DNA of 64,000 bases from Galeopterus variegatus (lineage: Eukaryota): positions 538,522-602,521 of the forward strand of contig NW_007726576.1 in the NCBI RefSeq assembly GCF_000696425.1, in the 5' to 3' direction. Positions 1 to 64,000 of this stretch are shown here, piece by piece. Made by a program: the position numbers and the translations under genes. The first letter of the stretch is position 1. The number at the start of each line of letters is the position of its first letter. The notes beneath the pieces were generated by a model that searched no databases, was not told the DNA's origin, and was given only the letters and a program-made list of their open reading frames with translations.

Positions 1-68
1 CCCTCGGCGGGAGCGCCACCACGCTTCCCAAGCGGCACACTATCTAGTGCGCCACCGGGCCGGCCCCC
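1..68 (-). mobile_element. t-SINE trimer, 5' portion (cut by window edge)
   Basis: Reverse complement of GGGCCGGCCCGGTGGCGCACTAG...GCTTGGGAAGCG...GCTCCCGCCGAGGG, the 5' end of the trimer family. Confidence 0.7.
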
Positions 69-150
69 ATAAGTGCCCTGTTTTATCAGATAAACTATAC
101 TAATGTTTTGGAGAGCTATCAGTAAGTTAGGTTTTTAAAAATGACATGCT

Positions 151-246
151 GGGCTGGCCTGTGGCTCACTTGGGTGAGTGTGGTGCTGACACCACCAAGT
201 GAAGGGTTAAGATCACCTTACTGGTCATCTTTAAAAAAAAAAAAAA
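151..246 (+). mobile_element. t-SINE monomer (tRNA-like unit, A14 tail)
   Basis: GGGCTGGCCTGTGGCTCACTTGGGTGAGTGTGGTGCTGACACCACCAAGTGAAGGGTTAAGATCACCTTACTGGTCATCTTT followed by A14. Confidence 0.75.
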
Positions 247-1147
247 GACGTGTTGAATGTTAACAGTTTGCCTTTATGAGAGGTATTATACTTAGTTCTA
301 TAGTGTATAGTATATAGTATATTCTTTTGTGATATAAAAGGAGGGCATTAGACTCAATTCCAAATCTCTTCCTTTTTTTTTTTTCCCCCCCAAATCCTTT
401 CCATTTAAAAAATTCTACAGAATAACAGTTCTCCAGGGATGAGAATGGGCGTTATTAATATTGATACCCTCCAATAGCTAACATGAATTTGTTTCTTAAG
501 TATTGAGAATAGGAAGAATCACAGAGTGAGTCCTCTAGAATAATTCCTGTCTTTGATATTTATATTGCAATCTCACTTTGAATTCACATCTTGTATTATT
601 TGGAAATACTGGGGGGAGAGGGGAAATATGTACTTTATTTACAAACCAAGAAGAATGGAGGCTCTAAGCTATATTTTAGATTAATCTAGGACTTACCAAA
701 GATTTAAAAATAGGTTAAAGTGTTCATTATCAAAGAATTATGGTTTGCTATTCAGTCAATTATGTATGAAAACTTCATAGCAAATGATTTATTAAAAATT
801 TTATATCCAGACCATAACGTTAAGCAATTGTATATACATTGTATGCATATTGTATACCCAGGGACTCGAATGACTTCAATCGCATTTTGCGATTTGAAAA
901 CCAAAAATATCCTTGGTCAGGGTTTTTTTTAATTCCACCTCATATTTCAGTATTCATTGTAACTGTGGAGTGTTACCTCCTCAAGTATGAATGTAGAATG
1001 AACAGTGTTTTGTTTCATCACATACTGTAGTTATTCGAGTTAACTTTATATTTGCCGTGGCTGTACTGGGAACTGTTGTAGGCACTGGGGATACAGCGGG
1101 AGTATACTCGCACGTTATTGTGCATTGGGGAAACAGACACATTCATT

Positions 1148-1402
1148 TTATTTTATTTATTTATTTATTTTTATTTTTTGTCTTTTGTCTTTTTCCGTGT
1201 CCGGCAACGGATCGCAACCCTCAGTGTTGCCCCCGCACCGGACCGGGGACCGGCAACGGGATTGCAACCCTCGGTGTTGCTCCCGCGCCTCGCTCAGCCA
1301 GTGAGCGGGAACCGGTCTGTATGTGGGATCCAAACCCTCGGGCGGGAGCGCCGCCGCGCTTCCCAAGCGGCGCACTTATTCAGTGCGCCACCGGGCCGGC
1401 CC
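1148..1402 (-). mobile_element. t-SINE trimer with target-site duplication
   Basis: Three tRNA-like units (rc of GGGCCGGCCCGGTGGCGCACTG...GGGTTTGGATCCCACATACAGACCGGTTCCCGCTCACTGGCTGAGCGAGG...GGGTTGCAATCCCGTTGCCGG...GGGTTGCGATCCGTTGCCGGACACGGAAAAAGACAAAAG) with an A/T-rich tail. Flanked by direct repeats ACACATTCATTTTA. Confidence 0.9.
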
Positions 1403-3116: not shown

Positions 3117-3306
3117 ATGCGCCGGCTCCGTGGCACACTTGGGAGAGTGCAGCGCTTGGGAGTGCAGCGGCGCTCCTGCCGCGGGTTTGGATCCTATATA
3201 GGGATGGCCGGTGTGCTCACTGGCTGAGCGCGGTGTGGGCAACACCAAGCCAAGGGTTGCGATCCCCTTACCAGTCACAGAAAAAGACAAAAAAAAAAAA
3301 AAAAAT
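3117..3306 (+). mobile_element. t-SINE, CTATATAGGG-class 2-unit variant, A18 tail, TSD
   Basis: GCGCCGGCTCCGTGGCACACTTGGGAGAGTGCAGCGCTTGGGAGTGCAGCGGCGCTCCTGCCGCGGGTTTGGATCCTATATAGGGATGGCCGGTGTGCTCACTGGCTGAGCGCGGTG...GGGTTGCGATCCCCTTACCAGTCACAGAAAAAGAC + A18. Flanking repeat AAAAAATGC(G/A)GTTTA. Confidence 0.8.
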
Positions 3307-3590: not shown

Positions 3591-3832
3591 GTTTTTTTTT
3601 TTTTTTTTTTTCCTTTTCGTCTTTTTTCGTGTCGGGCAATGGATCGCAACCCTCAGTGTCGCGCCCGTACCGGACCGGGACCGGCAACGGGATCGCAACC
3701 CTTGGTGTTGCGTCCGCACCTCGCTCAGCCAGTGAGCAGGAACCGGTCTGTATGTGGGATCCGAACCCTTGGCGGGAGCGCTGCCGTGCTCCCAAGCGAC
3801 GCACTGTAGCAGTACGCCACCGGGCCGGCCCT
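3591..3832 (-). mobile_element. t-SINE trimer, T23 tail, TSD CTTAATTCACG
   Basis: Full trimer in reverse orientation. Direct repeat CTTAATTCACG(T) at 3580-3590 and 3833-3843. Confidence 0.9.
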
Positions 3833-6046: not shown

Positions 6047-6112
6047 TTTTTGGCAGCTGACTGGTACAGGGATCGAACCTTGGACCTTGGTGTTATCAAC
6101 TGGACTAAGGAG
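6047..6112 (-). mobile_element. t-SINE monomer fragment
   Basis: TTTTTGGCAGCTGACTGGTACAGGGATCGAACCTTGGACCTTGGTGTTATCAAC is the rc of the 3' half of the Ile-tRNA-like unit. 5' part missing. Confidence 0.5.
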
Positions 6113-6669
6113 AAATGATATATTAAAGAAGTGTAATTTACAAAGGAAAAAAAAATTCTCAAGTTTTTGGGTTTTTAGTGATCCCAAACTAATTTTAGTC
6201 TTACATTCCTTTGGAAAGTGTGTAATCTTAAAAATGGCATAATTTTATAAAATCAGATCCATGCTAGAAATACTAGTTCCATTCCTCCTTCTCTGCTGTC
6301 TACTCTTTGGATGAAGGGGTCCCAATTTTTCTTTTTCTTTTTTTGTTATGTCAGACATAAAATTTTATAGAAACACATTAATATATTTATGACAAAACCC
6401 AAGTGAGTATATTGTCATCCTAATACATCCAGAAAGTATTATTTTAAGCATTTTTCTTTCCTAGCCACCTTATCTGGTGGTGATAAACATTATTCTGTCT
6501 TGACACGACAGGTGTGGTCCTGGGGGCCAAGAGTGACAGCATTGTCTTAGAGCTTGTTGGAAATGCAGGATTTCCAAGTAGGACACAGAGAACTGCTGAG
6601 TTAGAATGTTCATTTTAACATGACCTTAAGGGATTTCTGTGCACACTGTTTGAGAAGCACTTACGTACC

Positions 6670-6769
6670 TTTTTTAAAAAGATGACCGGTAAGGGGATCT
6701 TAACCCAAGACTTGGTGTTGTCAGCACCACGTTCTCCCAAGTGAGCCATGGGCCAGCCCTGGGATGTTT
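6670..6769 (-). mobile_element. t-SINE monomer
   Basis: rc of GGGCTGGCCCATGGCTCACTTGGGAGAACGTGGTGCTGACAACACCAAGTCTTGGGTTAAGATCCCCTTACCGGTCATCTTTTTAAAAAA. Confidence 0.75.
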
Positions 6770-7640: not shown

Positions 7641-7867
7641 TTTTTTTTTTTTTCCTTTTTGTCTTTTTTCGTGACCGGCAACGGATCACAACCCTCAGTG
7701 TCGCGCCCGTACCGGACCGGGACCGGCAACGGGATCGCAACCCTCGGTGTCGCGCTCGCACCTCGCTCAGTGAGCGGCCGGTCTGTATGTGGGATCTGAA
7801 CCCTCGGCGGGAGCCCCACCGCGCTCCTAAGCGGTGCACTGTAGCAGTGCGCCACTGGGCCGGCCCC
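7641..7867 (-). mobile_element. t-SINE trimer, TSD AAAGACCTGTCTT
   Basis: Full trimer in reverse orientation. Direct repeat AAAGACCTGTCTT at 7628-7640 and 7868-7880. Confidence 0.9.
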
Positions 7868-9075
7868 AAAGACCTGTCTTTTTCACGTCAAAATTTTCGT
7901 GAGAAAAATGCCTTTGACACAGGAGAAACAAGCTAGAAAACAAGTCTTTTTAATGCATTTATATACACAAGTTATGGATATGTGAGCAAACATAACATTT
8001 TACATTTTAAAACATGCCTCGGGCACATTTTCTGTGGTTAAAATGCTGTCTGGAATAGTAAAATTATTATTTTGTTAGATCACTCATCAGGCAGAAGTTT
8101 CCATTTTTTAGTTAGGGTTTTTGTTTTTGTAAAGGATTTAAGATGTTGTCTACTCTGTGTGGTGGTGGTTTTACTGGTTGAAAAGTATTATGGTAGCAGC
8201 CCACAAATTGAGAATAATCAACCACCTTTCCAATTTCCTGTAACTGGGAACTAGTAGAGGGTTTTTACCATCCTCTACCCCACAATTTTGGGTCATTCCT
8301 CACAATAGGAACTAATAAATGTGGCATTGTTGGGAGAAAAATCATGGTTTTACTAACGCTGTGTGACTTGGCTCAAGGCAAGCAAGTAATGGGGGTCATG
8401 AGCAAAACAGATAGGATGTGCTGTAGTGATTATTTTCTTCTTCCAGCTGGGAATCTGGATACCAGGATGCTCAGGATGACCGTCCAGACGGAAAGATGGT
8501 AACTTCCCGATCTTTAAAAAAAATTGGTCATGATGGAACTGTGCAGCCTCACTGTCATTACGTATTTGCAGTTTAACTAGTAAGTAAGGCTCATCCATAC
8601 TTGGAGGGAGAAGTTGGGTCTAGAAATCCCAGCCTCACTTTTTAAAGGAGCATCATCTGCAGGTCAGAAGACAAGGAGAGAGCAGCATGGATTCCACCAC
8701 TGGTCCTGTCTGAAGTTATGTCACAATAGCTAACAAAGCTTAAACTTTAAACTTTTAACGATGTCAAGGGTTTGTATCTCCGTACTGGCTAACCAACAAA
8801 AAACAAGAAAATTCTTTATCTTATGTTATTTCATCTCATGAATCAGTTTTTTTATACTCTATTTTAGGTGTCCTGCTTTTGCCTCTGTTTTGTGAATCAT
8901 CTTCCTGAGCTTTTTTATATCTCCCAGTTTTTATTCTAAGCAACTATCCTTTCATGTTAAGGGCTTTATCAGGCCCTTTCTGATTGTTAACATTCTGGCT
9001 TAAGTACATTTGAGATGGTGGTTAACTTTGAAGGCTGCCCAGTATGCTGCATATAAACATAGTAAAAAGTAGAAT

Positions 9076-9190
9076 TTTTTTTTTTTTTTGTCCTTTTGAC
9101 CGGCTGTGAGCGCACCGGTCATCCCTATATAGGATCCAAACCCTGCGCTCCCAGCGCTGCACTCTCCCAAGTGTGCCATGGGCTCGGCCC
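9076..9190 (-). mobile_element. t-SINE, CTATATAGGG-class
   Basis: rc of GGGCCGAGCCCATGGCACACTTGGGAGAGTGCAGCGCTGGGAGCGCAGGGTTTGGATCCTATATAGGGATGACCGGTGCGCTCACAGCCGGTCAAAAGGAC + A16. Confidence 0.8.
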
Positions 9191-11084: not shown

Positions 11085-11180
11085 ATTTTTATTTATTTAT
11101 TCATTTTTGGCAGCTGGCCAGTAACAGGGATTGAACCCTGTACCTTGGTGTTATAACCCAACTGAGCTAACCAGCCAGCC
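11085..11180 (-). mobile_element. t-SINE monomer (tRNA-Ile-like)
   Basis: rc of GGCTGGCTGGTTAGCTCAGTTGGGTTATAACACCAAGGTACAGGGTTCAATCCCTGTTACTGGCCAGCTGCCAAAAATG; A and B boxes recognisable. Confidence 0.8.
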
Positions 11181-11350
11181 GTCTTGTTACTTTTTGGAAG
11201 GATAATCAATAACTGCATGTTTATAACATTATTGCCAACTCTGCCCTTTCTGCTCAGGGGATGTGTGGCAAGGGCATATTAGAAAAAGATTCAAACTCCT
11301 CTGAAATCACCACATTAATTACTCATCCTTCTAGGGCAGCAAATCCACAC

Positions 11351-11805: not shown

Positions 11806-11993
11806 CTGTGGAGAGAGGACATGCCTGTGTCATTGCAGAAATGTAACTCCCCTTTCTCACGAAGAGGAGGGAAAAACACCCATTGGCCAAGACTGTTTCT
11901 CTTATTTGGCGATATTTTCAATTTATCAATTTACATGGTTAGAGTTATATAAAAAGAACATTATTCTGAGTGCTTATAATCTGATTTTAGGTC

Positions 11994-12120
11994 CTTTTTT
12001 TTGAGACCGGCTGCACCGCGCTCAGCCAGTGAGCGCCGGCCATCCCTATATAGGATCCGAACCCGCGGCAGGAGCGCTCCCAGCACCGCACTCTCCCGAG
12101 TGCGCCGCGGGCTCGGCCCT
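11994..12120 (-). mobile_element. t-SINE, CTATATAGGG-class (in last intron of MPHOSPH8)
   Basis: rc of GGGCCGAGCCCGCGGCGCACTCGGGAGAGTGCGGTGCTGGGAGCGCTCCTGCCGCGGGTTCGGATCCTATATAGGGATGGCCGGCGCTCACTGGCTGAGCGCGGTGCAGCCGGTCTCAAAAAAAAGG. Flanking TTAGGT repeats. Confidence 0.8.
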
Positions 12121-16049: not shown

Positions 16050-16152
16050 TAGCTGGCCGGTTTGCTCAGTTGGTCAGAGTGTGGTGCTGATAACACCAAG
16101 GTCCAGGGTCTGGTACAGGTAAGCAAAAGAAAGAAAGAAAAAGAAAAAGAGA
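16050..16152 (+). mobile_element. t-SINE monomer
   Basis: AGCTGGCCGGTTTGCTCAGTTGGTCAGAGTGTGGTGCTGATAACACCAAGGTCCAGGGTCTGGTACAGG with an A-rich tail. Confidence 0.75.
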
Positions 16153-20682: not shown

Positions 20683-21896
20683 CTTTGTTGGTTTTGTTAA
20701 AGAAAAAACTTGTTAATCTTTATTTAATTAGAACAATTTTAGAGCTAAGTCTTTTTACCTAAGATGTTTCAATGTGAATCACTAAAGTGCACTGATTTAA
20801 GCATCTACTTAGTTTCTTCACTAAAATATCCTAATAATCAGAAACTAATAACCTTTAGAATTTTTTTTTCCACATATAAGGCTGCCACAGAATTTTACTT
20901 TCATGTATTAAATTCTAAAGGCACATCAACAGTTTGCTTTATATAACATGAACAGTGAATTATTTGGTGGCAGATGATCAAAGTCTCCATCTAGAAAATC
21001 CAAGGTGAGTAAGTTAAAAATGGTCAGACTAAGAGAATTTCATTAAGGAGATATCACACACACACACACACCTGTCCAATAGCAATAGCTATACCACATA
21101 CAAGCAATAACCCGTTAGTAAACAAAATGTACATGAAAAAAGACCCTCATGACCACAGTAAGATAACAAAATATTATAAAACATGTAGAAATACATCTAA
21201 AAGAAATGTGCAAAAAAGACCTACATGAAGAAAAATCCCAGGGAATTTGCTTAAGGGTGTAAATGGCGAGCTGAATGAATGTAGAGACTTTCCATGTTCT
21301 CTGATGAGAGACTCAAGGTGGAAACAAAAATGTCAATTCTCAGACAAATTAATCTATATATTTCATGTAATTTTAATCAAAATCCCAACAATTTTTTGAA
21401 CTATAATCCCAAAGGATTAAACCTAAAAAAAATTTACAACTAAAGCTAAAAAACATAAAAATCTTTTTGAAGCAAGACAAGATATCCAAAAGCCATAAAT
21501 AAAAAACACTGACAGACGTGACTACCTAGAAATAAAAATCCTCTAAGCAAAACAACACTCAAAACACATAACCTAAGATCTAGGAAAAAAGGGCTAATAT
21601 GCTTCCACATAAAAATCTACATCTGTCAGTATGAAGAATCTCTAGCAAACAGCAGAAAAATGGCACTTGCTATAAATGGGCAACCACTGAAGAAACAGAA
21701 ATGGCCACATGAAAACATGAGTCATTTTATACTCCTCAAAGCAGCAGAGAATAAACCACAGACAAAGCCAGATCGATCACAACCAGTCATTTTGGGGGGC
21801 TAGATTAAAGGGACTAAAATTGTACATTTATATAGTTCTACAATGTTGAAGTTTTATAAAGTGAACATTATTTTTGTAATTAAAAAAAAGAAAAGA

Positions 21897-21995
21897 GCTG
21901 GCTGGTTTAGCTCAGTTGGTTAGAGCGTGGTATTAATACCAAAGTCAAGGGGGATCCCTGCACCGGCCAGGCAGTCTACCCCACCCAATAAATAA
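21897..21995 (+). mobile_element. t-SINE monomer
   Basis: GCTGGCTGGTTTAGCTCAGTTGGTTAGAGCGTGGTATTAATACCAAAGTCAAGGGGGATCCCTGCACCGGCCAGGCAG with an AT-rich tail. Confidence 0.7.
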
Positions 21996-23915: not shown

Positions 23916-24146
23916 TTTTTTTTTTTTCCTTTTTGTCTTTTTTCGTGACCGGCAACGGATCGCAACCCTCAGTGTCACGCCCGTACCAGACCGGGACCGG
24001 CCACGGGATCGCAACCCTCGGTGTTGTGCCCACACCTCGCTCAGCCAGTGAGCGGCCGGCCTGTATGTGGGATCCGAACCCTCGGCGGGAGCGCCACCAC
24101 ACTTCCCAAGCGGCGCACTGTAGCAGTGTGCCACCGGGCCGGCCCC
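23916..24146 (-). mobile_element. t-SINE trimer, TSD ATACCCTTTCC
   Basis: Full trimer in reverse orientation. Direct repeat ATACCCTTTCC at 23905-23915 and 24147-24157. Confidence 0.9.

Positions 24147-37108: not shown

Positions 37109-37145
<37 letters not shown>
36889..37145 (+). mobile_element. t-SINE trimer, young: about 48-nt pure A tail, TSD CACAAGAAG
   Basis: Full-length trimer, nearly free of CpG decay. Uninterrupted A tract 37098-37145. Direct repeat (A)CACAAGAAG at 36878-36888 and 37146-37155. Confidence 0.92.
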
Positions 37146-45268: not shown

Positions 45269-45436
45269 GTGTGTTTTTTTTTTTTTTTTTTGTCCTTTTT
45301 GAGACCTGCCGCACCGCTCTCAGCCAGTGAGGGCTGTGAGCGCACCGGTCATCCCTATATAGGATCCAAACCTGCGGCGGGAGTGCTGCTGCACTCCCAG
45401 CGCCACACTCTCCCGAGTGCACCACGGGCTCGGCCC
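45269..45436 (-). mobile_element. t-SINE, CTATATAGGG-class, TSD CAAGTGAAGTGT(G)TTT
   Basis: rc of GGGCCGAGCCCGTGGTGCACTCGGGAGAGTGTGGCGCTGGGAGTGCAGCAGCACTCCCGCCGCAGGTTTGGATCCTATATAGGGATGACCGGTGCGCTCACAGCCCTCACTGGCTGAGAGCGGTGCGGCAGGTCTCAAAAAGGAC + A17. Direct repeat AAGTGAAGTGT flanks both sides. Confidence 0.9.
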
Positions 45437-45909: not shown

Positions 45910-46182
45910 CTGTGATATGAATTAAAAACAGGCAAATAAAAGATATTACTGACATGATTAAATTTCCAAAAACACACACCTGCTGATAATATATGAAAGA
46001 ACCTGAGAAGTGCTTCTAAATGGAAATTCATATCACATGATAATGTATGTTCATTTCCTAAGGCAAGTAGCATAAGAAAAAACAGTATCACTGATCTATT
46101 TTTCATAAACTGAAGACTGAGGTCTTTTTCTGACTATATAAAGCAATATCCAAAAAGTAATGAAACACAGGAAGAAATAAGG

Positions 46183-46272
46183 GCTGGCTGGTTAGCTCAC
46201 TCGGTTAGAACACGGTGCTGATAACAGTAGGGTCAAGTATTTGGAACCCCATACCAGCCAGAGGCCAAAAAA
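46183..46272 (+). mobile_element. t-SINE monomer
   Basis: GGGCTGGCTGGTTAGCTCACTCGGTTAGAACACGGTGCTGATAACAGTAGGGTCAAGTATTTGGAACCCCATACCAGCCAGAGGCC followed by A7. Confidence 0.75.
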
Positions 46273-46689
46273 AGGAAGAACCAAATAAAAGTCACTCAAA
46301 GACACTGGTAACAATTTGATCTATTTCCTTCACCTACTACACTAATTTATTAACAGATAAGTAACATTTTTTAAAACACTGGGATAATACTATAATTTTT
46401 AAGTTTGCTTTTTCACTTATATATATCAAGCTCTTCGTTTTCAATATTTTTCAAAAACATGATTTTTAATGACTGAAGATTATTCCATCATATATTCTCT
46501 TTGTTAACTCTCCCTTTGTTAACCAGCAAATTACAGAAGGGCCTGCCCCCTGTTTTTGCTCATCCTGTGAGCTAAGAATGGTTTTATATTTTCAAATGAT
46601 TGAAAACAAATCAAAAGAAGAATTATATTTATAAAGTGCTTTACAATGTGTCACATAATATCTAAATCTTTGTATTTATTAGCTCATTT

Positions 46690-46860: not shown

Positions 46861-47240
46861 TATACATGAAAAGTTATTTAACACTGCTCTATACATGTGC
46901 ACTTACAGAATTATCATTAACTATTTACATTTTTTCTTTACAAAATAACCTGTTATGTGCTCATTTTCATCACTGCTATTGAACACTGTACTGAAGTTCC
47001 AGCCACAGCAATTAGATAAGAAAAAGAAATAAAAGACATCCAGTTTGAAAAGGAAGAAGCACAACTGTTGAGTATTCACAGATGACATGATCCTGCACAT
47101 AGAAAATCCCAAAGAATTCCACAAGAAAGCTACTTGAGCTAATAAATGAATTCAACAAAGATGTAGGGTACAAAACAAACACACAGAAATCGGTTGTGTT
47201 TCTAAACACCTGCAATGAACAATCTGACAAGAAAATTAAG

Positions 47241-47430
47241 GGCCGGCCCGGTGGCGCACTGGAGAGTGTGCCGCTTGGGAGCGTGGCGGCGCTCCCGCCA
47301 AGGGTTCGGATCCCATGTGGAGACCGGTTCCCGCTCGCTGGCTGAGTGTGGTGCGGGTGCGGCACCGAGGGTTGCGATCCCATTGCCAGCCATGAAAAAA
47401 AAGACAAAAAGGAAAAAAAAAAAAAAGAAA
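47241..47430 (+). mobile_element. t-SINE trimer inserted in L1, TSD (A)GAAAATTAAG
   Basis: GGGCCGGCCCGGTGGCGCACTGGAGAGTGTGCCGCTTGGGAGCGTGGCGGCGCTCCCGCCAAGGGTTCGGATCCCATGTGGAGACCGGTTCCCGCTCGCTGGCTGAGTGTGGTGCGGGTGCGGCACCGAGGGTTGCGATCCCATTGCCAGCCATGAAAAAAAAGAC... Direct repeat GAAAATTAAG on both sides, interrupting L1 ORF2-homologous sequence. Confidence 0.9.
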
Positions 47431-47821: not shown

Positions 47822-48002
47822 TGGGCCGGTCCGTGGCTCACTCGGGAGAGTGTGGTGCTGATAACACCAAGGCCACAGGTTCGGATCCCATATAGGGATG
47901 GCCAGTTCGCTCACTGGGTGAGCGTGGTGCTGACAAACACCAAGTCAAGGGTTAAGATCCCCACACCGGTCATCTTTAAAAAACAACAACAACAACAAAA
48001 AA
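47822..48002 (+). mobile_element. t-SINE dimer inserted in L1, TSD GTGTGGTACTG
   Basis: GGGCCGGTCCGTGGCTCACTCGGGAGAGTGTGGTGCTGATAACACCAAGGCCACAGGTTCGGATCCCATATAGGGATGGCCAGTTCGCTCACTGGGTGAGCGTGGTGCTGACAAACACCAAGTCAAGGGTTAAGATCCCCACACCGGTCATCTTTAAAAAA(CAA)n. Flanked by (T/A)GTGTGGTACTG repeats. Confidence 0.9.
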
Positions 48003-48453
48003 ACAGTGTGGTACTGAAAAACACCGATATAGAGAGTCCAGAGATAAACCCATACATCTAAGGCCAATTGATTTTTGAAAATGGTTCGAAGTCCACTCAA
48101 TAGGGAAACAAACTGTGCTGGGACAACCGGACTTCCAACATGCAAACAAACAAAGTTGGACCCCAACTTCATACCATGTAAAAATAATTGACTAAAAAAG
48201 GATCAAAGAGTTAAATTTAAGAGCTAAACCCATAAAATTCTTAAAAGAAAACACTGGAGTAAATCTTTAGACTTTGGATGGCTATGGATTCTTGGATGTG
48301 ATATCAAAAGCACAAACAAAAGAAAAAAAAAAGATAAATTGTACTTTATCAAAATTAAAAACGTATGTGCATCAAAGGACGTTACCAACAAAGTAAACAG
48401 ATAACCCACAGAATGGGAGAAAATATTTGCACATTAAAAATATCTGATAAAGC

Positions 48454-48524
48454 CGGTCCGGTACGGGGGCAACACTGAGGGTTGCGATCCGTTGCCGGAC
48501 ACGGAAAAAGACAAAAAAAAAAAA
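48454..48524 (+). mobile_element. 5'-truncated t-SINE (third unit of trimer only), with TSD
   Basis: GCCGGTCCGGTACGGGGGCAACACTGAGGGTTGCGATCCGTTGCCGGACACGGAAAAAGAC + A14. Direct repeat ATCTGATAAAG at 48443-48453 and 48525-48535. Confidence 0.8.
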
Positions 48525-48535
48525 AATCTGATAAA

Positions 48536-48620
48536 GGGTTAAAGCACAGCCTTATAATAACAAGGTCAAGGGTTCACCTCCCTGTGTGGTAGGCCAGCCA
48601 CCAAAACAAAACAAAAGAAC
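48536..48620 (+). mobile_element. t-SINE monomer, 5'-truncated
   Basis: GGTTAAAGCACAGCCTTATAATAACAAGGTCAAGGGTTCACCTCCCTGTGTGGTAGGCCAGCCACC with a (CAAAA)n-like tail. Confidence 0.6.
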
Positions 48621-48629: not shown

Positions 48630-48712
48630 AGGTTGGCTGTTTAGCTCAGTTGGTTCTAACTGAGAACCTTAGAACACCAAGGTCAGCCACCTTCAAAAAA
48701 AACAAAAAACAA
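48630..48712 (+). mobile_element. t-SINE monomer (degenerate)
   Basis: GCAGGTTGGCTGTTTAGCTCAGTTGGTTCTAACTGAGAACCTTAGAACACCAAGGTCAGCCACC with an A-rich tail. Confidence 0.6.
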
Positions 48713-50762
48713 GTATCTAATAAGGGATTAATATCCAGAATATATGAACAACTACAATTCACCAACAAGACAGACAATCGAATTCAAAAGTGGGCAAAGG
48801 ACTTGAACAGACATTTCTTCAGAGAAGATACACAAACTGCCAATAAGCACATGAAAAGATGCTCAACATCATTACTCCTTAGGGAAATGCAAATCAAATC
48901 ACAAAATGAGATACCACTCTTCGCCTGTTACATGGCTATTAAAAAAACGCCAATGGAAAACAATAACAGTTGGTAACGATGTGGAGAAACTGGAACCTTC
49001 TTACATTGGTGCTAGGAATGTAAAATGGCACAGCTACTGTGGAAAACTGTCAGGCAGTTCCTCAAAAAGTTAAACATAAAATCAACCTATGACCCAGCAA
49101 TTCCACACGGAGGTATATACCCCCAAAGAATTGAAAACACAGACTCAAACAGGTATCTGTATACCAATGTTCACTGCAGCATTATTCACAATAGCCAAAA
49201 GGTGAAAGCAACCCAAGTGCCCATAAGTGGATAAACCAATAAAATGTGATATATACATACAATGAAATATTATTCAGCCTTGAAAAGAAAGAAAATCCTT
49301 ACGCATGTCACAACATAGATGAAACTTAAAAGTATTACGCTAAGTGAAATAAGCCAGACACAAAACACATATTTATGATTCCACTTAGACGAGGTGCCTA
49401 GAACAGGCAAATTTACTGAGACAAAGTAGATTAGAGGTTATCAGGGACTGGGGGGAGAGGTGAAATGGGGAGTTACTGTTTCATGGTTACAAAGTCTGTG
49501 CAATGATTTTAAAAAAGGTTTTGGATATGGTAATGGTTGCACAACATTGCGAATGTAATTAATGCCACTGAATTTTACATTTAAAAATGATTAAAATGGC
49601 TAATTTTATGATATATGTATAATTATAATAAAAATATCCTTTACCTATTGTGTCTTTTGCCCATTTCATTGCTCATTTATGAGACTTTTTCTTTTTCATA
49701 CTTATGGCTATTAAATCTTTGTCATATATATTCCAAATTTTTGCTTAAATCCCAACAAGCAAGAACATATCTGCAACATGGTTGTCTGCATGAACTGCAG
49801 AGCACCATTCCAGCTATACACTTAACATCTGCCTGATTTTATTCATACTTCTACCATGGCAATAAACCTTCCCAGCTGAGTGCCAAGAACTGCTGCCTCC
49901 CACTTTACCCTTCAGTCATACCTACACCGCCCTCCAATCATTCTGCAGTGTGTAGAATGACCAAGTATCAATATTTAGTAGTATTAGGAACAAAGAAATA
50001 ATGGAAAATCTTAAAATCTTAACTTTTAAAGATACTCCTGAAAATCCTTAAAATTTAAAAATAACACTCGTACAGTCATGCACCCCACAACAACTCTTCA
50101 GTCAATGATGAAACACATATACAATGGTGGTCCCATAAGATTATAATGGAGCTGGAGGTGTGTAGTGGGCTATACCACCATTTAGGTTTGTGAAAGTACA
50201 CTCCATGATGTTCACATAAATATGAAATCACCTAAGGACGTGTTTATCAGAAAGTCATTAAGCAACACAAAACTGTAGTTTAAGAGGACATCAATACAGT
50301 TTTACGGCTCAGCTACATTAATTGGGTCAGGGATCAGTTGATTATATCAGTTAAGAATAAATGCATATTCTTTTTAGCAAAACTGTGTACAAAAGGAAAA
50401 CTATCATGTACAACTTTGTAAGAGCTTCTACGACGGTATAGTTTAAACCGAAGAAATTAAACAAAGGTGAGACAGCATAGTTGTTTTCTTAAACAACTAT
50501 GCTTCTTAGCCTGAATGAATGCGGGAAGAAAGAAAAAGAAATCTTAGTCGATAATATGCAGTATTGCCTGAAAGAGAGTAATATGCTTGGTCTTGGTAGA
50601 AACATCACATGAAGAGTTATATGTTTGTAGGAGAGTGTAGGAATATGCTAATTTCATCAATAACAGGTCACGAGAACAAATGACCCTTGTTTGTATGTGT
50701 TTATAAAAATAGTGGTAAATCTGTCATTCAATACACTGCTTTTAAAATAAACACTATTTTGT

Positions 50763-50838
50763 GGCCGGCCCATGGCTCACTTGAGAGAGTGTGGTGCTAA
50801 CAACACCAAGCCAAGGGTTAAGATCCCCTTTCCAGTCA

Positions 50839-50870
<32 letters not shown>
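50763..50870 (+). mobile_element. t-SINE monomer, A34 tail
   Basis: GGCCGGCCCATGGCTCACTTGAGAGAGTGTGGTGCTAACAACACCAAGCCAAGGGTTAAGATCCCCTTTCCAGTCATCTTT + A34. Confidence 0.8.
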
Positions 50871-51595: not shown

Positions 51596-51706
51596 GGGGC
51601 TAGCCAGTTAGCTCAGTTGGTTAGAGTGCAGTATTATAATACCAAGGTCAAGGGTTCAGATCCTCATACTGGCCAGCCACCAAAAAAAAAAAAAAAAAAA
51701 AAAAAC
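51596..51706 (+). mobile_element. t-SINE monomer (tRNA-Ile-like), A28 tail
   Basis: GGGGCTAGCCAGTTAGCTCAGTTGGTTAGAGTGCAGTATTATAATACCAAGGTCAAGGGTTCAGATCCTCATACTGGCCAGCCACC + A28. Confidence 0.85.
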
Positions 51707-52199: not shown

Positions 52200-54160
52200 C
52201 AGAGGAAACAGAAAACAGAAGAGATGACAGATTTAAACCCAAATATTAACAGCAATGGCAGCAAACTAAAAAACACATACAAACAAACAAAAACCAGCAA
52301 TGGCAACAAATGTAAATAGATCAGATATTTCAGTTCTAAAACAAGATTATCAGACTAGATTAAAAACCAAAGCCAAAACAAACAAACAAACAAAAAGTTA
52401 ACTTTACCAGGAAGATTTAATGATTCCAAATCAAAACTAAAAAAAAAAAAAAAAAAAAAAAAAAGCGAAAACATGGTTAGCTCCATTGCTTAGAGCATGG
52501 TGCTGATAACACCAAGGTTCAGGGTTCCATCCCCCGAAAAAAGCAAAAATTATGTAATTACAGAAAGACTAATTTCCAACCAAAATGGGAGATTTGAACA
52601 CCTTTCCCCAGTAAAACTGATAGAAAATGCAGCCAAAAGAAAAAAAAAGAAGGAAAGGATACAGACTATCTGAACAGCACAATTAGCAAACCTGACCTAT
52701 TTGACCAGGCACTAAACAACTGTGGAACATACATTTTCCAGTGTACTTTGAAACACTAAAAATAAAAGTGACAGCCGCATTTTTAATTTGCTTTTAACTT
52801 TCAGAGGAAAAATGTATAAGTGCGTTTTGCTCAGCTTAAGAATGATCCTGTAGCCACTAAGGCAGTTAAGCACATAAAGCTTAATAAGCAAGTGTGGGAA
52901 CTTGCAACACGGTCAAAATTAGTTTAAAAAATGTTTTGTTTATCTTAAAGAAAAATATAGTCAGTTAAACATAAAATAATAATAGTTTAAACAATAATCA
53001 TGAGTGATTTAGAGTCACCAGATGCTTGCTTCTACTTTTGCTTCACAGATATGTTGTTTTTTGCAGATTTTGAGACTGGGGTGGCCTCAACCATGTAGAT
53101 CATCTGATAGCCAGACAAGCTGACACCAAGAACCAAAACAGATCAAGATCAGGGAAGATGCTGAAACATGCACAAGAGCCAACCAACCAGAGATGTCCAT
53201 AACCTATTCACAAGCCCTAACTCCCTACCTTAACTTTTGCTTTTGAAAACCCATGACTGAAAGCCAACATGGAGTTCTGGTTTAAAGTGACAGCTTCTCG
53301 TTCTCTTTGCTTGGCCGTGCAATAAAGTCTGCACTTTCTTCACTGCAAATCTCAGTGTTCACTGATGGGCTTAGCTGAGTATGAGGCAGGTGGACCTCCC
53401 TTGTTTGGCAACAAAAATGACCACTGCTGGACCATAAAGCATGTTTCAACAAATTTCAGACTACAACAATGTAGAGACTATTCTCTGACCAAAAAGCAAT
53501 TAAACTAGAAATCATTTTTAAAAAGATAAATAAAATATTCCCAAATGTTTGGAAATGAATATACTTGTATAAAAATTCATGGAAATTGGAAAATATTTTT
53601 ATCTGAACGATAACAAACACATTACATAACACAACTTATGAGCTGCAGCTAAACTAAGATTAGAGGGTAGTCTTAAAGGCATATAATTTGAAGGAAAATA
53701 AAAGGCTGAAATACAATGAGCTAAGGCCAGTAAATTAAGGGACAAAGATAATAAAGATAAAGCAGAAATTAATGAAATAAAAAAATAACCGTATAAATAA
53801 GAAAACCAACAAAACTTGGTTCTTAAAATCAACAAAAGTACTAAACCTTGGGTAGAACAATGAAGAAAAACAGAGAAGGCACAAATAATCTCACTTCATA
53901 TCAGACATTCAAAGATCATTAAGAGGACATCACGAAGAACCTTACACCTATAAATTTAAAAATGTACCTAAAATGTGCACATCCTTAGAAAATATAACTT
54001 TTTAAAACATCGGAATAAGCCTATAACTATAAAAGATAACAGTTTCTAATTTAAAAACTTTTCCAAAAGTAAATTTGAGATGGCATCATGGTCAAATTCT
54101 ACCAGACATTCACAAGAAAATCCCTGAGAACTAGAATTTGAACCCAACTTCCATCACTAA
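52200..54160 (+). mobile_element. LINE-1 fragment (ORF2 5' half), in MPHOSPH8 intron 1
   Basis: Recognisable L1 ORF2 segments, e.g. GGGAGATTTGAACACCTTTCCCCAGTAAAACTGATAGAAAATGCAGCCAAAAG, CTCTGACCAAAAAGCAATTAAACTAGAAATCA, GCAGAAATTAATGAAATAAAAAAATAACCGTATAAATAAGAAAACCAACAAAACTTGGTTCTTAAAATCAACAAAAGTACTAAACC and CAGACATTCAAAGATCATTAAGAGGA. Boundaries are approximate. Confidence 0.6.
52465..52548 (+). mobile_element. t-SINE monomer (degenerate) adjacent to an A26 tract
   Basis: GCGAAAACATGGTTAGCTCCATTGCTTAGAGCATGGTGCTGATAACACCAAGGTTCAGGGTTCCATCCCCCGAAAAAAGC. Confidence 0.6.
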
Positions 54161-56120: not shown

Positions 56121-56127
56121 GCCACAT

Positions 56128-56465: not shown

Positions 56466-56645
56466 GGGCCGGCCCGTGGCTCACTCGGGAGAGTGTGGTG
56501 CTGATAACACCAAGGCCCCGGGTTCAGATCCCATATAGGGATGGCCGGTTCGCTCACTGGCTGAGTGTGGTGCTGACAACACCAAGTCAAGGGTTAAGAT
56601 CCCCTTACCGGTCATCTTTAAAAATAAATAAATAAATAAAAATAA
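56466..56645 (+). mobile_element. t-SINE dimer inserted in L1
   Basis: GGGCCGGCCCGTGGCTCACTCGGGAGAGTGTGGTGCTGATAACACCAAGGCCCCGGGTTCAGATCCCATATAGGGATGGCCGGTTCGCTCACTGGCTGAGTGTGGTGCTGACAACACCAAGTCAAGGGTTAAGATCCCCTTACCGGTCATCTTTAAAAATAAATAAATAAATAAAAATAAAG. Flanking AAGAAGAA repeats. Splits L1 ORF2 homology. Confidence 0.9.
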
Positions 56646-57125: not shown

Positions 57126-58094
57126 AGAATTGCAACAAACTAGGAAAAGAAGGAAACTACTTCAACATAATAAAGGCCATGTATGAAAAGCTCACATGGA
57201 GCATCATATTCAAGGAAAAATTGAAAGCCTGTCTATGATGAGGAATAAGGCAAGAATGTACACTCTTGCCACTTCTATGCTACATAGTACTGTAAGTCCT
57301 AGCCAGAGCAATTAGGCAAGAAAAAGAAATAAAAGCCATCCAAGTTGGAAAGGAAGAAGTGAAATTATCTCTATTAGCAGGTGACATGATCTTATAAGCA
57401 GAAAACCCTAAAGATTTCACCGAAAAACTGTTAGCACCAATAAATGAATTCAGCAAACTTGCAGGATACAAAATCAAGACACCCCCCCCAAAAAAAGTTG
57501 TGTTTCTATACACCAACAATGAACATTCCAAAAGGAAAATTAAGAAAACAATCCATCTACAATAACATCACAAAGAATAAAATATGAGAGGGAGGGGACC
57601 TGCTGGGGTGGGGAAACGTTGGTCATATGATACAAAATTTCAGTTAGATAGGATGAATAAGTTCAAGAGATCTATTGCACAACATGGGGACTATACTTAA
57701 TAACAATGTACTATAGTCTGGAAAATTGCTGAGAGTAGATTTTAAGTGTTCTCACCACAAAAAAATGACAAGTATGTGAAGTAATGCATATGTTAGTTAG
57801 CTCTATTTAGCCATTCCACAATGTATACATATTTCAAAACATTATATACAATAAATATAATAAATATATGCAATTTTTATTTGTCAATTAAAAATAAAAT
57901 GCTTAGGGATAAACTTAACCATGGGGGTGAAAGGACTGAAAACTACAAAACAATGCTGAAAGAAATGAAAGGATGCAAATAAATGAAAAGACATCCTGTG
58001 TTCATGGATTGGGAGACTTAACATTGTAAAAATGTCCATGCTACCCAAAGTGATGAATAGTTCATTGCAATCCCTATCAAAATCCCAATGGTGG

Positions 58095-58135
58095 GCTGGC
58101 CGGTTAGCTCAGTTGGTTATAGCATGGCCCTGATA
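58095..58135 (+). mobile_element. t-SINE monomer, 3'-truncated
   Basis: GGGCTGGCCGGTTAGCTCAGTTGGTTATAGCATGGCCCTGATAAAAATC. Confidence 0.5.
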
Positions 58136-58547
58136 AAAATCACAAAGGCCTTATTTGTAGAAATTTAATAAAAGATCCTAAAATTCATATAGAATATCAA
58201 AGGACCACCCTGAATATCCAAGCCAATCTTGAAAAAGAACAAAATTGGAGACCTCAACACTTCCTGATTTCAAAACAAATGACAAAGGTATGGTAATCAA
58301 AATAGTGTGTTGCTGTCTTAAAGACTGACATATAGACCAATGGAACAGATTGGAGGGCCCAGAAATAAACCCTCATGAAAACAGTCAAGTGATCTCTGAG
58401 AAGGTTGCCACACAATTGGGAAAGGACAGCTTCTTTAACAAATGGTGATAAGAAAACGGGATATCCCAATGGAAAAAATAGATATCCACCATACAAAAAA
58501 ATATGGATATCCATCATGTAAAAAAATTAGCTCAAAATGCATTGAAG

Positions 58548-58635
58548 GCTGGCAGTTTAGTTCAGTTGGTTAGAGTACAGTGTTATAACACTAAGGTCAA
58601 GGGTTTGGATACCCTTACCAGCCAGCCACAAAAGG
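58548..58635 (+). mobile_element. t-SINE monomer in L1
   Basis: GGCTGGCAGTTTAGTTCAGTTGGTTAGAGTACAGTGTTATAACACTAAGGTCAAGGGTTTGGATACCCTTACCAGCCAGCCAC. Confidence 0.75.
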
Positions 58636-62452: not shown

Positions 62453-62517
62453 ACTTTTTTTGGTGGCTGGCTGGTATGGGGATCTGCACTGTAACCAACT
62501 GAGTTAACCGGCCAGCC
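62453..62517 (-). mobile_element. t-SINE monomer with internal deletion
   Basis: TTTTTTTGGTGGCTGGCTGGTATGGGGATCTGCACTGTAACCAACTGAGTTAACCGGCCAGCCC. Confidence 0.65.
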
Positions 62518-63591
62518 CTCATTTACTTTATTTTAAAGGGACTGATTGCTACACTGAATAAAATCATAATTAAATTACATTATGGGTCCTATTAATATTT
62601 GATTATTTTCTACATAGAAACATGAGAAAAGTTTAAAATACAATTTCATTTGATTCAGCCTTGACTGTAATTGAGAACTCTGTAAAGAGGAGAAGCGGTG
62701 TCTATGGGTTGACTTCCCAGCAGCTGCTTAGTGGCAGAGTCCCAGTCTTTACCCAGCTCGAGCCGCTGGCAGACAGAAGGATACTGTGCTTCAGTTCTTC
62801 TCACCCATTCACTTGCTTTCTTTATTTCCTCAAAAGCCCAGGGAATGTTCCTAGATTTAAAAAATAAATATTTTCATTGGTTTCAGACTATAATTACACG
62901 TGAAATGAAATGTGGTACTAAATCTATCACATATCACACAGACTGATTTTATCAAAAATTAAGATATTTAATAAATATCTTGACATCCATGAATGCTCTT
63001 CTACCAGTCTGACGTGGAGCTTTGCTTATTCCATACATGTCGAGCGCCCTTCCGCTTGCCCTGTGCTTCACAGGCTGCCCTGCAGCTCCAGGACAACTTG
63101 GGCTTCTTCTAGTCTCTGTGTATTTGTTTATGTTAGCCCTTTCCACTCTCCTCCATATAAATCCTATCCATCTTCAAGCACAAACTTGAGTATTAATTTA
63201 CAATCCAGGCTTCTGTTTCCCTCTCCTTTCCACTACCGGGAATTCTCACCCTGGTTAGTTCCTTGCAGAATACCTGAGAGTCACCCATGAAACGGGCATA
63301 TACTTAATTGTGTCACATAAACCAGGAACAACTTACTAGTAAAATGTGCATAACATAAAAACTTCAAGTTTGTATCCACAAAATGATGTCGAATATTCAA
63401 GACTATTCGAGACTCAGAAAATTCTGAGATTTTTCATTGATATTAATTAGCTACCCCATTAGTTTTGTCACCTGCTAGAACTAGTTATTGAACAACTGGC
63501 AGCATACGACAAAGCTTTTAGGGGCATTTTGGGAGGGAAGGACAACATTATGAAAATTCTCTTCATCTTCCTGATCTTTTTCTTACTTTCA

Positions 63592-63685
63592 TTTTTTGGC
63601 GGCTGGCCGGTACAGGGATTGAACCCTGGACCTTGGCGTTATCAGCACCACGCTCTAACCAACTCAGCTCACTGGCCGTCCATGC
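63592..63685 (-). mobile_element. t-SINE monomer
   Basis: rc of GGACGGCCAGTGAGCTGAGTTGGTTAGAGCGTGGTGCTGATAACGCCAAGGTCCAGGGTTCAATCCCTGTACCGGCCAGCCGCCAAAAAATG. Confidence 0.75.
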
Positions 63686-64000
63686 CAGATCTTCCTGTGA
63701 ACTGGGAAAGAACCTCAGTACAGCGTGGTTGCTGGGAGCGGGGTCCCAGTCCCCGCTCTGCAATCACCAGTGTTGGCTGTGATATTGTGCAACTCTCATT
63801 CAACACTGGAAGTCTGTTTCCTCAATTATGATAATAATATGAGGTCTATGGGTTTATTGTGGGGATTAACGAACTCATGAATTTAACATGCTTACCAGTC
63901 CCTGGCACAGAGCAGGCACTCAGTAAACGTCAGGAGAATATTGTGATGAGATGAACACACTAAATGGTGAGCAGTCCCAAAGCGGTTAAAATACTCATGT

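What the first reader, a model, noticed from the sequence alone, without database searches (positions are those of the whole stretch)
1..64000. Repeat content identifies the host lineage: colugo-type t-SINEs (tRNA-Ile-derived monomers, dimers and trimers with no tRNA-unrelated region)
At least 38 SINE copies are built only from tRNA-like units in one, two or three tandem copies, ending in A tails. Example units: GGGCTGGCTGGTTAGCTCAGTTGGTTAGAGC...ACACCAAGGTCAAGGGTTCAGATCCC, or GGGCCGGCCCGGTGGCGCACTG...GGGTTCGGATCCCACATG.... Monomer/dimer/trimer t-SINEs of this structure were described for Dermoptera (CYN family). The window is therefore most likely from Galeopterus variegatus or Cynocephalus volans. 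This is an inference from memory of the literature, not a database hit.
Basis: inference. Interest (0 to 1): 0.55.

Follow-up and report, generated by a model that had tools for sequence, protein, structure and literature searches.

The report
Colugo-type tRNA-Ile SINEs in MPHOSPH8
The window is an ordinary mammalian gene region (MPHOSPH8) peppered with about 40 copies of one family of small tRNA-derived jumping elements whose structure matches the family described for colugos, so the colugo origin is likely but could not be checked directly here.

Summary
They comprise about 21 monomers, 11 dimers and 9 trimer-lineage copies. All end in A-rich tails, and most dimers and trimers have 10-18 bp target-site duplications.

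A homology chain built inside the window links human tRNA-Ile(AAT) to the old monomer (86% over 74 nt), then to a variant monomer, two dimer types and the CpG-rich trimer. No tRNA-unrelated body is present.

Two corrections apply. The trimer's third unit is only a duplicated 3' half-unit. The GC-rich units are not recognisably tRNA-Ile on their own.

After masking, no other multi-copy repeat family remains. No Alu, B1, 7SL, rabbit C-repeat or Tupaia SINE is detectable. MPHOSPH8 exons 1-3 place the host next to primates (NJ bootstrap 0.85, few taxa).

This fits Dermoptera (CYN/t-SINE) by elimination. No colugo SINE consensus or colugo genome was reachable, so the host assignment stays inference (about 0.8). 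The family is already known and interest is low.

The parts
2..65 (-). Trimer-lineage SINE, 5' 64 nt only (rest lies beyond the window start)
   Evidence: nhmmer trimer HMM E=1.5e-13; motif hit
145..243 (+). Variant monomer (mono2) ending CCGGTCATCTTT(A)n
   Evidence: E=5.7e-31; sequence
1168..1402 (-). Full trimer with tail GAAAAAGACAAAAGAC(A)n; target-site duplication AAAATGAATGTGTC
   Evidence: E=3.9e-78; TSD
3121..3302 (+). Dimer, intermediate between the older and the GC-rich dimer types; TSD AAAAAATGCRGTTTA
3600..3831 (-). Full trimer with tail; TSD ACGTGAATTAA
   Evidence: E=1.7e-78
6047..6100 (-). tRNA-Ile-like monomer (mono1), 3' fragment
   Evidence: E=4.5e-11
6668..6760 (-). Variant monomer (mono2)
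   Evidence: E=8.7e-31
7642..7866 (-). Full trimer with tail; TSD AAAAAGACAGGTCTTT
   Evidence: E=6.4e-73
8761..8803 (+). mono1 3' fragment (weakest call)
   Evidence: E=7.6e-4
9104..9189 (-). GC-rich dimer (dimer2) fragment
   Evidence: E=6.5e-21
11104..11181 (-). mono1 with internal deletion
   Evidence: E=8.9e-18; alignment
11993..12118 (-). GC-rich dimer (dimer2) ending GGCCGGTCTC(A)n
   Evidence: E=2.6e-37
16052..16121 (+). mono1, 3'-truncated or decayed
   Evidence: E=5.8e-18
21896..21978 (+). mono1
   Evidence: E=2.7e-18
23916..24145 (-). Full trimer with tail; TSD AAAAAGGAAAGGGTATG
   Evidence: E=1.2e-77
26244..26380 (+). GC-rich dimer (dimer2); TSD CAAAAACACACSGCA
   Evidence: E=2.8e-44
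33284..33495 (+). Trimer without A tail, sitting exactly between two copies of a ~277-bp tandem duplication (33007-33284 and 33483-33760)
   Evidence: E=4.9e-70; duplication
36888..37121 (+). Full trimer with a long A tail; TSD CACAAGAA
   Evidence: E=4.8e-77
37920..38083 (-). Older dimer (dimer1). Unit B scores as a tRNA. TSD TATAGTGTGAGTTCAG
   Evidence: E=8e-60; ARAGORN; Rfam tRNA 40.6 bits
38596..39013 (-). Cluster of at least 3 nested or recombined SINE copies (dimer2, internally deleted young dimer, old 3' end), with a 96-bp x2.2 tandem duplication at 99% identity
39960..40057 (+). mono1 with A17 tail; scores as a tRNA
   Evidence: E=5.7e-24; Rfam tRNA 37.3 bits
43781..43875 (+). mono1
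   Evidence: E=1.5e-24
45290..45435 (-). GC-rich dimer (dimer2); TSD ACACTTCACTTG. About 300 bp from MPHOSPH8 exon 2, in the intron
   Evidence: E=2.7e-43
46180..46275 (+). mono1
   Evidence: E=5e-21
47240..47402 (+). Young dimer of the trimer lineage (units 1 and 2 only); TSD AGAAAATTAA
   Evidence: E=1.1e-36
47824..47987 (+). Older dimer (dimer1); TSD AAAACAKTGTGGTACTG
   Evidence: E=1.4e-58
48453..48525 (+). 5'-truncated trimer (unit 3 plus tail only); TSD ATCTGATAAAG
   Evidence: E=6.7e-20, model positions 155-227
48537..48608 (+). mono1 fragment
   Evidence: E=8.5e-10
48631..48685 (+). mono1 fragment
   Evidence: E=1.6e-6
50762..50853 (+). Variant monomer (mono2) with a long A tail
   Evidence: E=2.1e-30
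51597..51689 (+). mono1 with A24 tail
   Evidence: E=2e-26; sequence
52475..52535 (+). mono1 fragment
   Evidence: E=1.7e-12; Rfam tRNA 28.9 bits
56152..56241 (-). mono1
   Evidence: E=3.2e-21
56466..56630 (+). Older dimer (dimer1). Unit B scores as a tRNA. TSD TAAAGAAGAAYT
   Evidence: E=2.2e-60; ARAGORN; Rfam 42.4 bits
57028..57118 (+). mono1
   Evidence: E=8.8e-24
58093..58147 (+). mono1, 5' half only
   Evidence: E=2.5e-9; sequence
58541..58634 (+). mono1; scores as a tRNA
   Evidence: E=3.2e-24; Rfam 30.1 bits
62455..62518 (-). mono1 with internal deletion
   Evidence: E=2.9e-11
63589..63683 (-). mono1, the most tRNA-like copy (ARAGORN tRNA-Ile, anticodon GAT)
   Evidence: (42.9 bits)
30734..31591 (-). 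Context used for host placement: MPHOSPH8 exon 3. Exon 1 is at 55584-55787 and exon 2 at about 45757-45909; further exons run down to about 16.7 kb, all on the minus strand

Best explanation
The window is a mammalian MPHOSPH8 locus, with the gene on the minus strand. It has been colonised repeatedly by one lineage-specific family of non-autonomous retrotransposons that consist only of tRNA-related units plus an A-rich tail.

Proposed history of the family (inferred order):
- It began as a retroposed tRNA-Ile(AAT)-like monomer of about 80 nt. This is the oldest layer, about 15% diverged from its consensus.
- A variant monomer followed, then a head-to-tail dimer of about 148 nt.
- Next came a GC-rich dimer in which the D and anticodon arms were remodelled into long perfect hairpins.
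- The youngest form is a CpG-rich 'trimer' of about 205 nt, whose third unit is a duplicated half-unit.

[quoted passage not shown] It would then be copied into the genome by LINE-1 target-primed reverse transcription through its A-rich 3' end.

Shown here: the A tails, the 10-18 bp target-site duplications that begin with AAAA, and one 5'-truncated copy.

Inferred host: the architecture matches what was published for the CYN/t-SINE family of Dermoptera, so the host is most probably a colugo (Galeopterus or Cynocephalus).
For: Presence and abundance:
- The motifs occur far above chance.
- There are 41 segments, 7.7% of the window.
- After masking, no other repeat family has 3 or more copies.

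tRNA origin:
- ARAGORN and Rfam copies as tRNA-like.
- The monomer consensus is 86% identical to human tRNA-Ile(AAT) over all 74 nt, z=38. The tRNA sequence was taken from PMC13439101.
- Every link of the chain monomer, variant monomer, dimer1, dimer2, trimer is 74-90% identical with z of 17-57.
- Dimer1 folds as two cloverleaf-like units (z=-4.0).

Mobilisation:
- Target-site duplications were found for 14 of 16 dimer and trimer insertions. There is one 5'-truncated copy, and all have A tails.
- Divergence falls from monomers to dimers and trimers.

Host:
- MIR is present, so the host is a mammal.
- There is no 7SL-like sequence at Rfam E<=1.
- Consensuses recalled from memory for Alu, B1, ID, B2, CAN, PRE1 and C-repeat give no hits.
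- Published examples of a rabbit C-repeat, a Tupaia SINE and a primate Alu give no hits.
- 7SL SINEs are restricted to primates, rodents and tree shrews (PMC13023118).
- MPHOSPH8 exons 1-3 fall as sister to two primate sequences, bootstrap 0.85 on 218 columns.
- The literature titles place a tRNA-derived t-SINE/CYN family in dermopterans.
Against: - No sequence comparison with a published CYN/t-SINE consensus or with a colugo genome was possible.
- The details of the family description (tRNA-Ile origin, monomer/dimer/trimer forms, no unrelated region) come from my memory of the 2003 abstracts, not from a text I could read.
- Eighteen known Galeopterus sequences in PMC9141288 Supplement S1 showed none of about 29 diagnostic motifs. 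At the window's density 5-9 hits were expected. However, the same loci show only 3 Alu-core motif hits, roughly 2 to 3 Alus, in 26 primate sequences, so they are pre-selected clean loci and the test is weak.
- The MPHOSPH8 tree has only 9 taxa, with no tree shrew, lagomorph, afrotherian, xenarthran or bat.
- 't-SINEs' have also been reported in cetaceans, as a reference title only, so the architecture alone is not unique to colugos.
- Pol III transcription and L1 dependence are inferred from sequence, not shown.
Confidence: 0.8

Rival explanations
1. The elements are what they appear to be, tRNA-Ile-derived simple, dimeric and trimeric SINEs. The host, however, is a non-dermopteran mammal carrying an undescribed or little-known convergent family, for example another euarchontan or an order whose SINEs I could not test.
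For: - Host identity was never tested directly.
- Simple and complex tRNA-only SINEs arose independently in several orders: ID, vic-1 and DAS-I (SINEBase paper), and cetacean t-SINEs as a reference title.
- Known Galeopterus sequences showed no motif hits.
Against: - The MPHOSPH8 exons group with primates rather than with carnivore or cetacean sequences.
- Primates, rodents, tree shrews and rabbit are excluded by the absence of their SINEs.
- As far as I recall from the literature, the other known simple SINEs derive from tRNA-Ala rather than tRNA-Ile.
- The missing motif hits are explained by locus selection.
Confidence: 0.14
2. The GC-rich elements are a separate family unrelated to tRNA-Ile, for example 7SL-derived like Alu, B1 or Tu, or related to horse ERE or bat VES. 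On this view the reader merged two families.
For: - The head GGGCCGGCCCGGTGGCGCAC resembles the heads of Alu, B1, ERE and the rabbit C-repeat.
- Trimer units compared directly with tRNA-Ile match only at the B box (z 2-3).
- Weak nhmmer hits were found with ERE1 and VES consensuses recalled from memory (E about 2e-3).
Against: - An unbroken chain of intermediates inside the window links trimer to dimer2 (80%, z=39), dimer2 to dimer1 (82%, z=49), and dimer1 unit B to tRNA-Ile (79% over 74 nt, z=23.5).
- There is no Rfam SRP hit at E<=1.
- Alu and B1 models give no hit.
- The ERE and VES hits cover only the tRNA-like head, and their 3' bodies are absent.
Confidence: 0.04
3. The tRNA-like hits are genuine tRNA genes or ordinary tRNA pseudogenes, not a SINE family.
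For: Six copies reach or approach Rfam's tRNA gathering score, and ARAGORN calls three tRNAs.
Against: - The copies share diagnostic differences from tRNA-Ile, including a 5' GGGCT extension paired with a 3' AGCC and an A/G change at the anticodon.
- They carry A tails and target-site duplications, occur 41 times in 64 kb, and form dimers and trimers.
- The predicted anticodons GAT and GAC are not the standard mammalian Ile and Val isoacceptors (established knowledge).
Confidence: 0.01

Closest known systems
CYN / t-SINE family of Dermoptera (Piskurek et al. 2003, Mol Biol Evol 20:1659; Schmitz & Zischler 2003, Mol Phylogenet Evol 28:341). Only the titles could be read here; the details are from memory.
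   Same: The elements are tRNA-derived (tRNA-Ile). They are built only of tRNA-related units with no tRNA-unrelated or LINE-derived body. They occur as monomers, dimers and trimers, and several subfamilies of different age coexist.
   Different: Nothing contradictory was found, but sequence identity to the published consensuses could not be checked. In this window the third 'unit' of the trimer is a half-unit duplication. The youngest subfamilies are so remodelled (GC-rich hairpins) that they are no longer recognisably tRNA-Ile by direct comparison.
Other simple tRNA-only SINEs: rodent ID, camelid vic-1, armadillo DAS-I, with DAS-II and DAS-III as dimer-like derivatives (SINEBase paper)
   Same: Head-plus-tail architecture, an A-rich tail, L1-type target-site duplications, and the later emergence of dimeric descendants.
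   Different: These families arose independently. From memory they derive from tRNA-Ala-type sources, not tRNA-Ile. The recalled ID consensus gives no hit in the window.
Primate Alu, rodent B1 and tree-shrew Tu types II/III (7SL-derived dimeric and trimeric SINEs; PMC13023118)
   Same: L1-mobilised, CpG-rich and multimerised from monomers. They fill the same genomic niche, that of the dominant lineage-specific SINE at about 8-10% of the sequence.
   Different: Those families derive from 7SL RNA. There is no 7SL similarity anywhere in the window.

Membership tests
CYN / t-SINE (Dermoptera) | Derived from tRNA-Ile | tested here: met
   The monomer consensus is 86% identical to human tRNA-Ile(AAT) over 74 nt, z=38 (tRNA sequence). 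ARAGORN calls tRNA-Ile at 63604-63677. Later subfamilies are linked by a chain of significant alignments.
CYN / t-SINE (Dermoptera) | Only tRNA-related units plus a tail; no tRNA-unrelated, CORE or LINE-derived body | tested here: met
   The whole length of the monomer, dimer and trimer consensuses is accounted for by tRNA-like units, a linker of about 10 nt and the tail.
CYN / t-SINE (Dermoptera) | Occurs as monomers, dimers and trimers | tested here: met
   About 21 monomers, 11 dimers and 9 trimer-lineage copies. Caveat: unit 3 is a duplicate of the 3' half of unit 2.
CYN / t-SINE (Dermoptera) | Sequence identity to the published CYN/t-SINE consensus sequences | not testable with these tools
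   The founding papers are not held. No repeat library is available. Full-text sequence searches found nothing.
CYN / t-SINE (Dermoptera) | Host is a dermopteran | tested here: inconclusive
   Indirect support comes from the primate-sister placement of MPHOSPH8 and the exclusion of primates, rodents, tree shrew and rabbit by their SINEs. The direct test against 18 published Galeopterus sequences found no copies, but those loci are pre-selected to be free of insertions.
SINE in the sense of SINEBase (Vassetzky & Kramerov 2013) | Short interspersed repeat with at least 60% identity to a tRNA over at least 60 nt | tested here: met
   The criterion is quoted. The observed value is 86% over 74 nt. 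Copies are interspersed on both strands.
SINE in the sense of SINEBase (Vassetzky & Kramerov 2013) | [quoted passage not shown] | not testable with these tools
   Only 64 kb is available. A count of 41 segments in 64 kb makes a high genomic copy number very likely.
L1-mobilised (A-tailed) SINE | A-rich 3' tail, variable target-site duplications of 7-20 bp starting at an AAAA-type L1 endonuclease site, and occasional 5' truncation | tested here: met
   Target-site duplications of 10-18 bp were found for 14 of 16 dimers and trimers, nearly all starting with AAAA. There is a 5'-truncated copy at 48453-48525.
L1-mobilised (A-tailed) SINE | Internal Pol III promoter (A box and B box) in the first unit | tested here: met
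   In the monomer the A box is TAGCTCAGTTGG and the B box GGTTCGATCCC. In the trimer they are TGGCGCACTG and GGTTCGGATCC. These are near-consensus by eye on the consensuses. Transcription itself was not tested.
7SL-derived SINEs (Alu, B1, Tu) | Similarity to 7SL RNA | tested here: not met
   There is no Metazoa_SRP hit at E<=1. The Alu and B1 consensuses and a published Alu copy give no hit.
Functional tRNA genes | Canonical tRNA with a standard anticodon, and no retroposition hallmarks | tested here: not met
   The anticodons are GAT and GAC. The copies carry A tails, flanking duplications and 5' and 3' extensions shared among copies.

The most novel reading that the evidence does not exclude
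The window is not from a colugo but from another mammal that carries an undescribed tRNA-Ile-only SINE family. That family would have gone independently through the same monomer, dimer, trimer evolution. This would be a second, convergent origin of the t-SINE architecture.
Probability: 0.1. Interest if true: 0.4.

Novelty: already known. Interest (0 to 1): 0.12.

Why it matters
The finding is mainly a provenance label. The dominant lineage-specific SINE says which mammalian order a stretch of anonymous sequence comes from, and here it points to Dermoptera. That helps in annotating the window: the tRNA hits are SINEs and not genes, and 7.7% of the sequence is one repeat family.

It is not a discovery, because the family was described in 2003. 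A small bonus is that this one 64-kb window holds every stage of the family's evolution, from a tRNA-Ile retrocopy to a CpG-rich multimer. That makes it a compact illustration of how simple SINEs become complex ones.

Tried and rejected
1. Host identification through proteins. MPHOSPH8 exon 3 searched against 5.8 billion protein clusters gave at best 74% identity (titi monkey) and no near-identical hit. Exact look-up of 7 window ORFs found none in the collection. A translated trimer consensus gave no hit at all. The host genome is therefore not in those collections.

2. A metagenome scan for a trimer 19-mer returned 7 loci. All were chance matches with no SINE by nhmmer.

3. Literature. The two founding papers are not held, and a guessed PMC id for a review was wrong. 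Term searches returned only reference-list mentions. Full-text searches for SINE sequence strings returned only tRNA-Ile oligonucleotides and one irrelevant paper. No supplements are held for PMC3531059, PMC4980104 or PMC1395351. The supplements of the colugo lentivirus paper contain no genomic flanks.

4. Positive control in known colugo DNA. Eighteen Galeopterus sequences in PMC9141288 Supplement S1 were searched with about 29 motifs in both orientations, with 0 hits. I first read this as evidence against a colugo origin, since 5-9 hits were expected. Calibration then showed only 3 Alu-core motif hits (roughly 2 to 3 Alus) in 26 primate sequences of the same file. The loci are selected to be free of insertions, so the result is inconclusive.

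5. I rejected the idea that the GC-rich family is 7SL-, ERE- or VES-related.

6. I rejected the idea that these are real tRNA genes.

Only the rabbit, Tupaia and Alu copies come from a published file.
Full report
**What is in the window**

The sequence is AT-rich mammalian DNA (GC 0.35-0.48). It carries MPHOSPH8 on the minus strand:
- exon 1, with the start of the chromodomain, lies at 55584-55787;
- exon 2 lies at about 45757-45909;
- the large exon 3 lies at 30734-31591;
- further exons run down to about 16.7 kb.

Four MIR copies confirm a mammalian host.

**Checking the observation**

Both example motifs are strongly over-represented, with 10 and 8 matches at three mismatches or fewer against 0 in shuffles. 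ARAGORN finds three tRNA-like genes, and Rfam finds six tRNA hits at or near threshold.

I built HMMs from copies in the window and iterated by subfamily. This gave 41 segments at E<=1e-3, covering 4.9 kb or 7.7% of the window, on both strands. After masking them, self-BLAST finds no other family with three or more copies. Only old L1 pairs and a few local duplications remain.

**Anatomy: five subfamilies**

1. mono1 is about 80 nt: GGGCTGGCCGGTTAGCTCAGTTGGTTAGAGC...GGGTTCGATCCCCATACCAGCCAGCC, then ACC(A)n.
2. mono2 ends in CCGGTCATCTTT(A)n.
3. dimer1 is about 148 nt and consists of two tRNA-like units joined by ATATAGGGAT. Its unit B is 90% identical to mono2.
4. dimer2 is GC-rich. The anticodon arm is replaced by the hairpin GGGAGCGC...GCGCTCCC, the second unit is truncated, and the tail is CTC(A)nGGAC(A)n.
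5. The trimer is about 205 nt with 30 CpG sites in its consensus. Its tail is (A)nGAC(A)nGG(A)n.

**The homology chain**

Using the human tRNA-Ile(AAT) sequence printed in PMC13439101, one search gave these results:

| Comparison | Identity | z-score |
|---|---|---|
| mono1 vs tRNA-Ile | 86% over all 74 nt | 38 |
| mono2 vs tRNA-Ile | 77% | not noted |
| dimer1 unit A vs tRNA-Ile | 80% | not noted |
| dimer1 unit B vs tRNA-Ile | 79% | 23.5 |
| dimer1 vs dimer2 | 82% | 49 |
| dimer2 vs trimer | 80% | 39 |
| trimer unit 3 vs 3' half of unit 2 | 89% | 15.7 |

Taken alone, the trimer units match tRNA-Ile only at the B box (z 2-3). The tRNA-Ile origin of the GC-rich elements is therefore real but visible only through the intermediates. 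No tRNA-unrelated or LINE-derived body exists in any subfamily.

Predicted folds show two cloverleaf-like domains for dimer1 (z=-4.0) and long GC hairpins for the trimer (z=-3.2).

**How the elements move**

Fourteen of 16 dimer or trimer insertions have flanking direct repeats of 10-18 bp. Nearly all of these begin with AAAA, which is the LINE-1 endonuclease target type. All copies with an intact 3' end have A-rich tails. One trimer is 5'-truncated, to unit 3 plus the tail, and still has a perfect target-site duplication.

The first unit keeps near-consensus A and B boxes. The most likely mechanism is therefore Pol III transcription followed by L1-mediated target-primed reverse transcription. 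The hallmarks are shown here; the enzymology is inferred.

Mean divergence from the subfamily consensuses:
- mono1: about 15%
- mono2: 7%
- dimer1: 4%
- dimer2: 7% (1.5% outside CpG)
- trimers: 6% (3.6% outside CpG)

Successive waves have been active. The last waves are of an age similar to the published split of the two colugo genera, 11-18 Myr. The genus therefore cannot be inferred.

**Whose genome is it?**

Direct identification failed:
- The protein collections contain no near-identical MPHOSPH8 exon; the best hit is 74%.
- None of seven window ORFs is present.
- There is no translated-SINE match.
- A metagenome scan gave only chance hits.
- The founding CYN/t-SINE papers are not in the library, and only their titles are available.

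The indirect evidence is consistent with Dermoptera:
1. An alignment of MPHOSPH8 exons 1-3 with the few available orthologues places the window as sister to two primate sequences. The bootstrap value is 0.85 on 218 columns. Several apparently derived states are shared with these two sequences, namely ERAGQE, QDR, and a one-residue insertion relative to the laurasiatherian sequences that is also present in the rodent-like and platypus sequences.
2. 7SL-derived SINEs characterise primates, rodents and tree shrews (PMC13023118). None is present here (Rfam SRP at E<=1; Alu and B1; a published Alu copy).
3. Published copies of a rabbit C-repeat and a Tupaia SINE find nothing in the window. Recalled consensuses for ID, B2, CAN, PRE1, ERE and VES give nothing beyond weak similarity at the tRNA-like head.

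By elimination, a close relative of primates whose only abundant lineage-specific SINE is a tRNA-Ile-only element in monomer, dimer and trimer forms is a colugo.

**An adverse-looking control that turned out uninformative**

PMC9141288 Supplement S1 prints 18 Galeopterus variegatus sequences. None of about 29 diagnostic motifs, tested in both orientations, occurs in that file. At the window's SINE density 5-9 hits were expected.

The same file holds 26 primate sequences and shows only 3 Alu-core motif hits, corresponding to roughly 2 to 3 Alus. That is several-fold below the genomic Alu density. These loci were evidently chosen to be free of insertions, and the absence carries little weight.

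**Verdict**

The structural interpretation is supported. The host assignment to Dermoptera is the best inference at about 0.8 but remains unverified.

The family is a known kind (CYN/t-SINE, 2003). The finding is therefore a useful provenance and annotation note rather than a discovery.

Noticed in passing
window 33007-33760: A trimer SINE without an A tail (33284-~33482, + strand) sits exactly at the junction of a ~277-bp tandem duplication (33007-33284 and 33483-33760, 90-95% identical). The duplicated sequence gives sub-threshold Rfam mir-1261 hits at 33064-33147 and 33542-33623. From memory, mir-1261 is Tigger-derived in human. This is either an insertion with an unusually long target-site duplication or SINE cDNA captured at a duplication or repair junction.
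   Followed up: partly
window 38596-39013 (- strand): A nested and recombined cluster of at least three SINE copies. It contains a 96-bp x2.2 tandem duplication that is 99% identical (38706-38919). The likely cause is unequal recombination between adjacent homologous SINE units.
   Followed up: partly
trimer consensus, units 1-2 (for example 36888-37093): In the youngest subfamilies the former D arm and anticodon arm have become long perfect GC hairpins: GGCGCACTG-loop-CAGTGCGCC and GGGAGCGC...GCGCTCCC. The loop of the first hairpin differs between copies (CTA, AATA, GAT, GAG, CGC) while the stem is kept. This hints at selection on RNA structure in the source genes.
   Followed up: partly
window 55300-56300: A GC-rich, CpG-island-like region surrounds MPHOSPH8 exon 1. 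It has long open frames on both strands, which are artefacts of composition. An old SINE monomer lies at 56152-56241 and a dimer at 56466-56630, immediately upstream of the gene.
   Followed up: no
window 46988-47784, 48593-48973 and 57287-58276: Old LINE-1 fragments lie here. The two fragments at 46988-47784 and 57287-58276 are about 75% identical to each other, and 48593-48973 carries an ORF2-like open frame. Several SINE copies have inserted into or next to them.
   Followed up: no
window 1687-1904, 27963-28198, 25017-25107: Local tandem duplications of 108 bp x2 (98% identical), 111 bp x2.1 (95%) and 46 bp x2 (97%), all unrelated to the SINE family.
   Followed up: no
window 42937-43003 and 36602-36689: Sub-threshold Rfam miRNA hits (mir-297, MIR8706). 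They are most likely simple-repeat or palindromic sequence rather than genes.
   Followed up: no
monomer consensus (for example 51597-51689): The monomer extends the tRNA acceptor stem by a 5' GGCT paired with a 3' AGCC. It then reads ACC(A)n, reminiscent of a CCA end. This suggests that the founder was a retrocopy of a processed or extended tRNA-Ile transcript.
   Followed up: no
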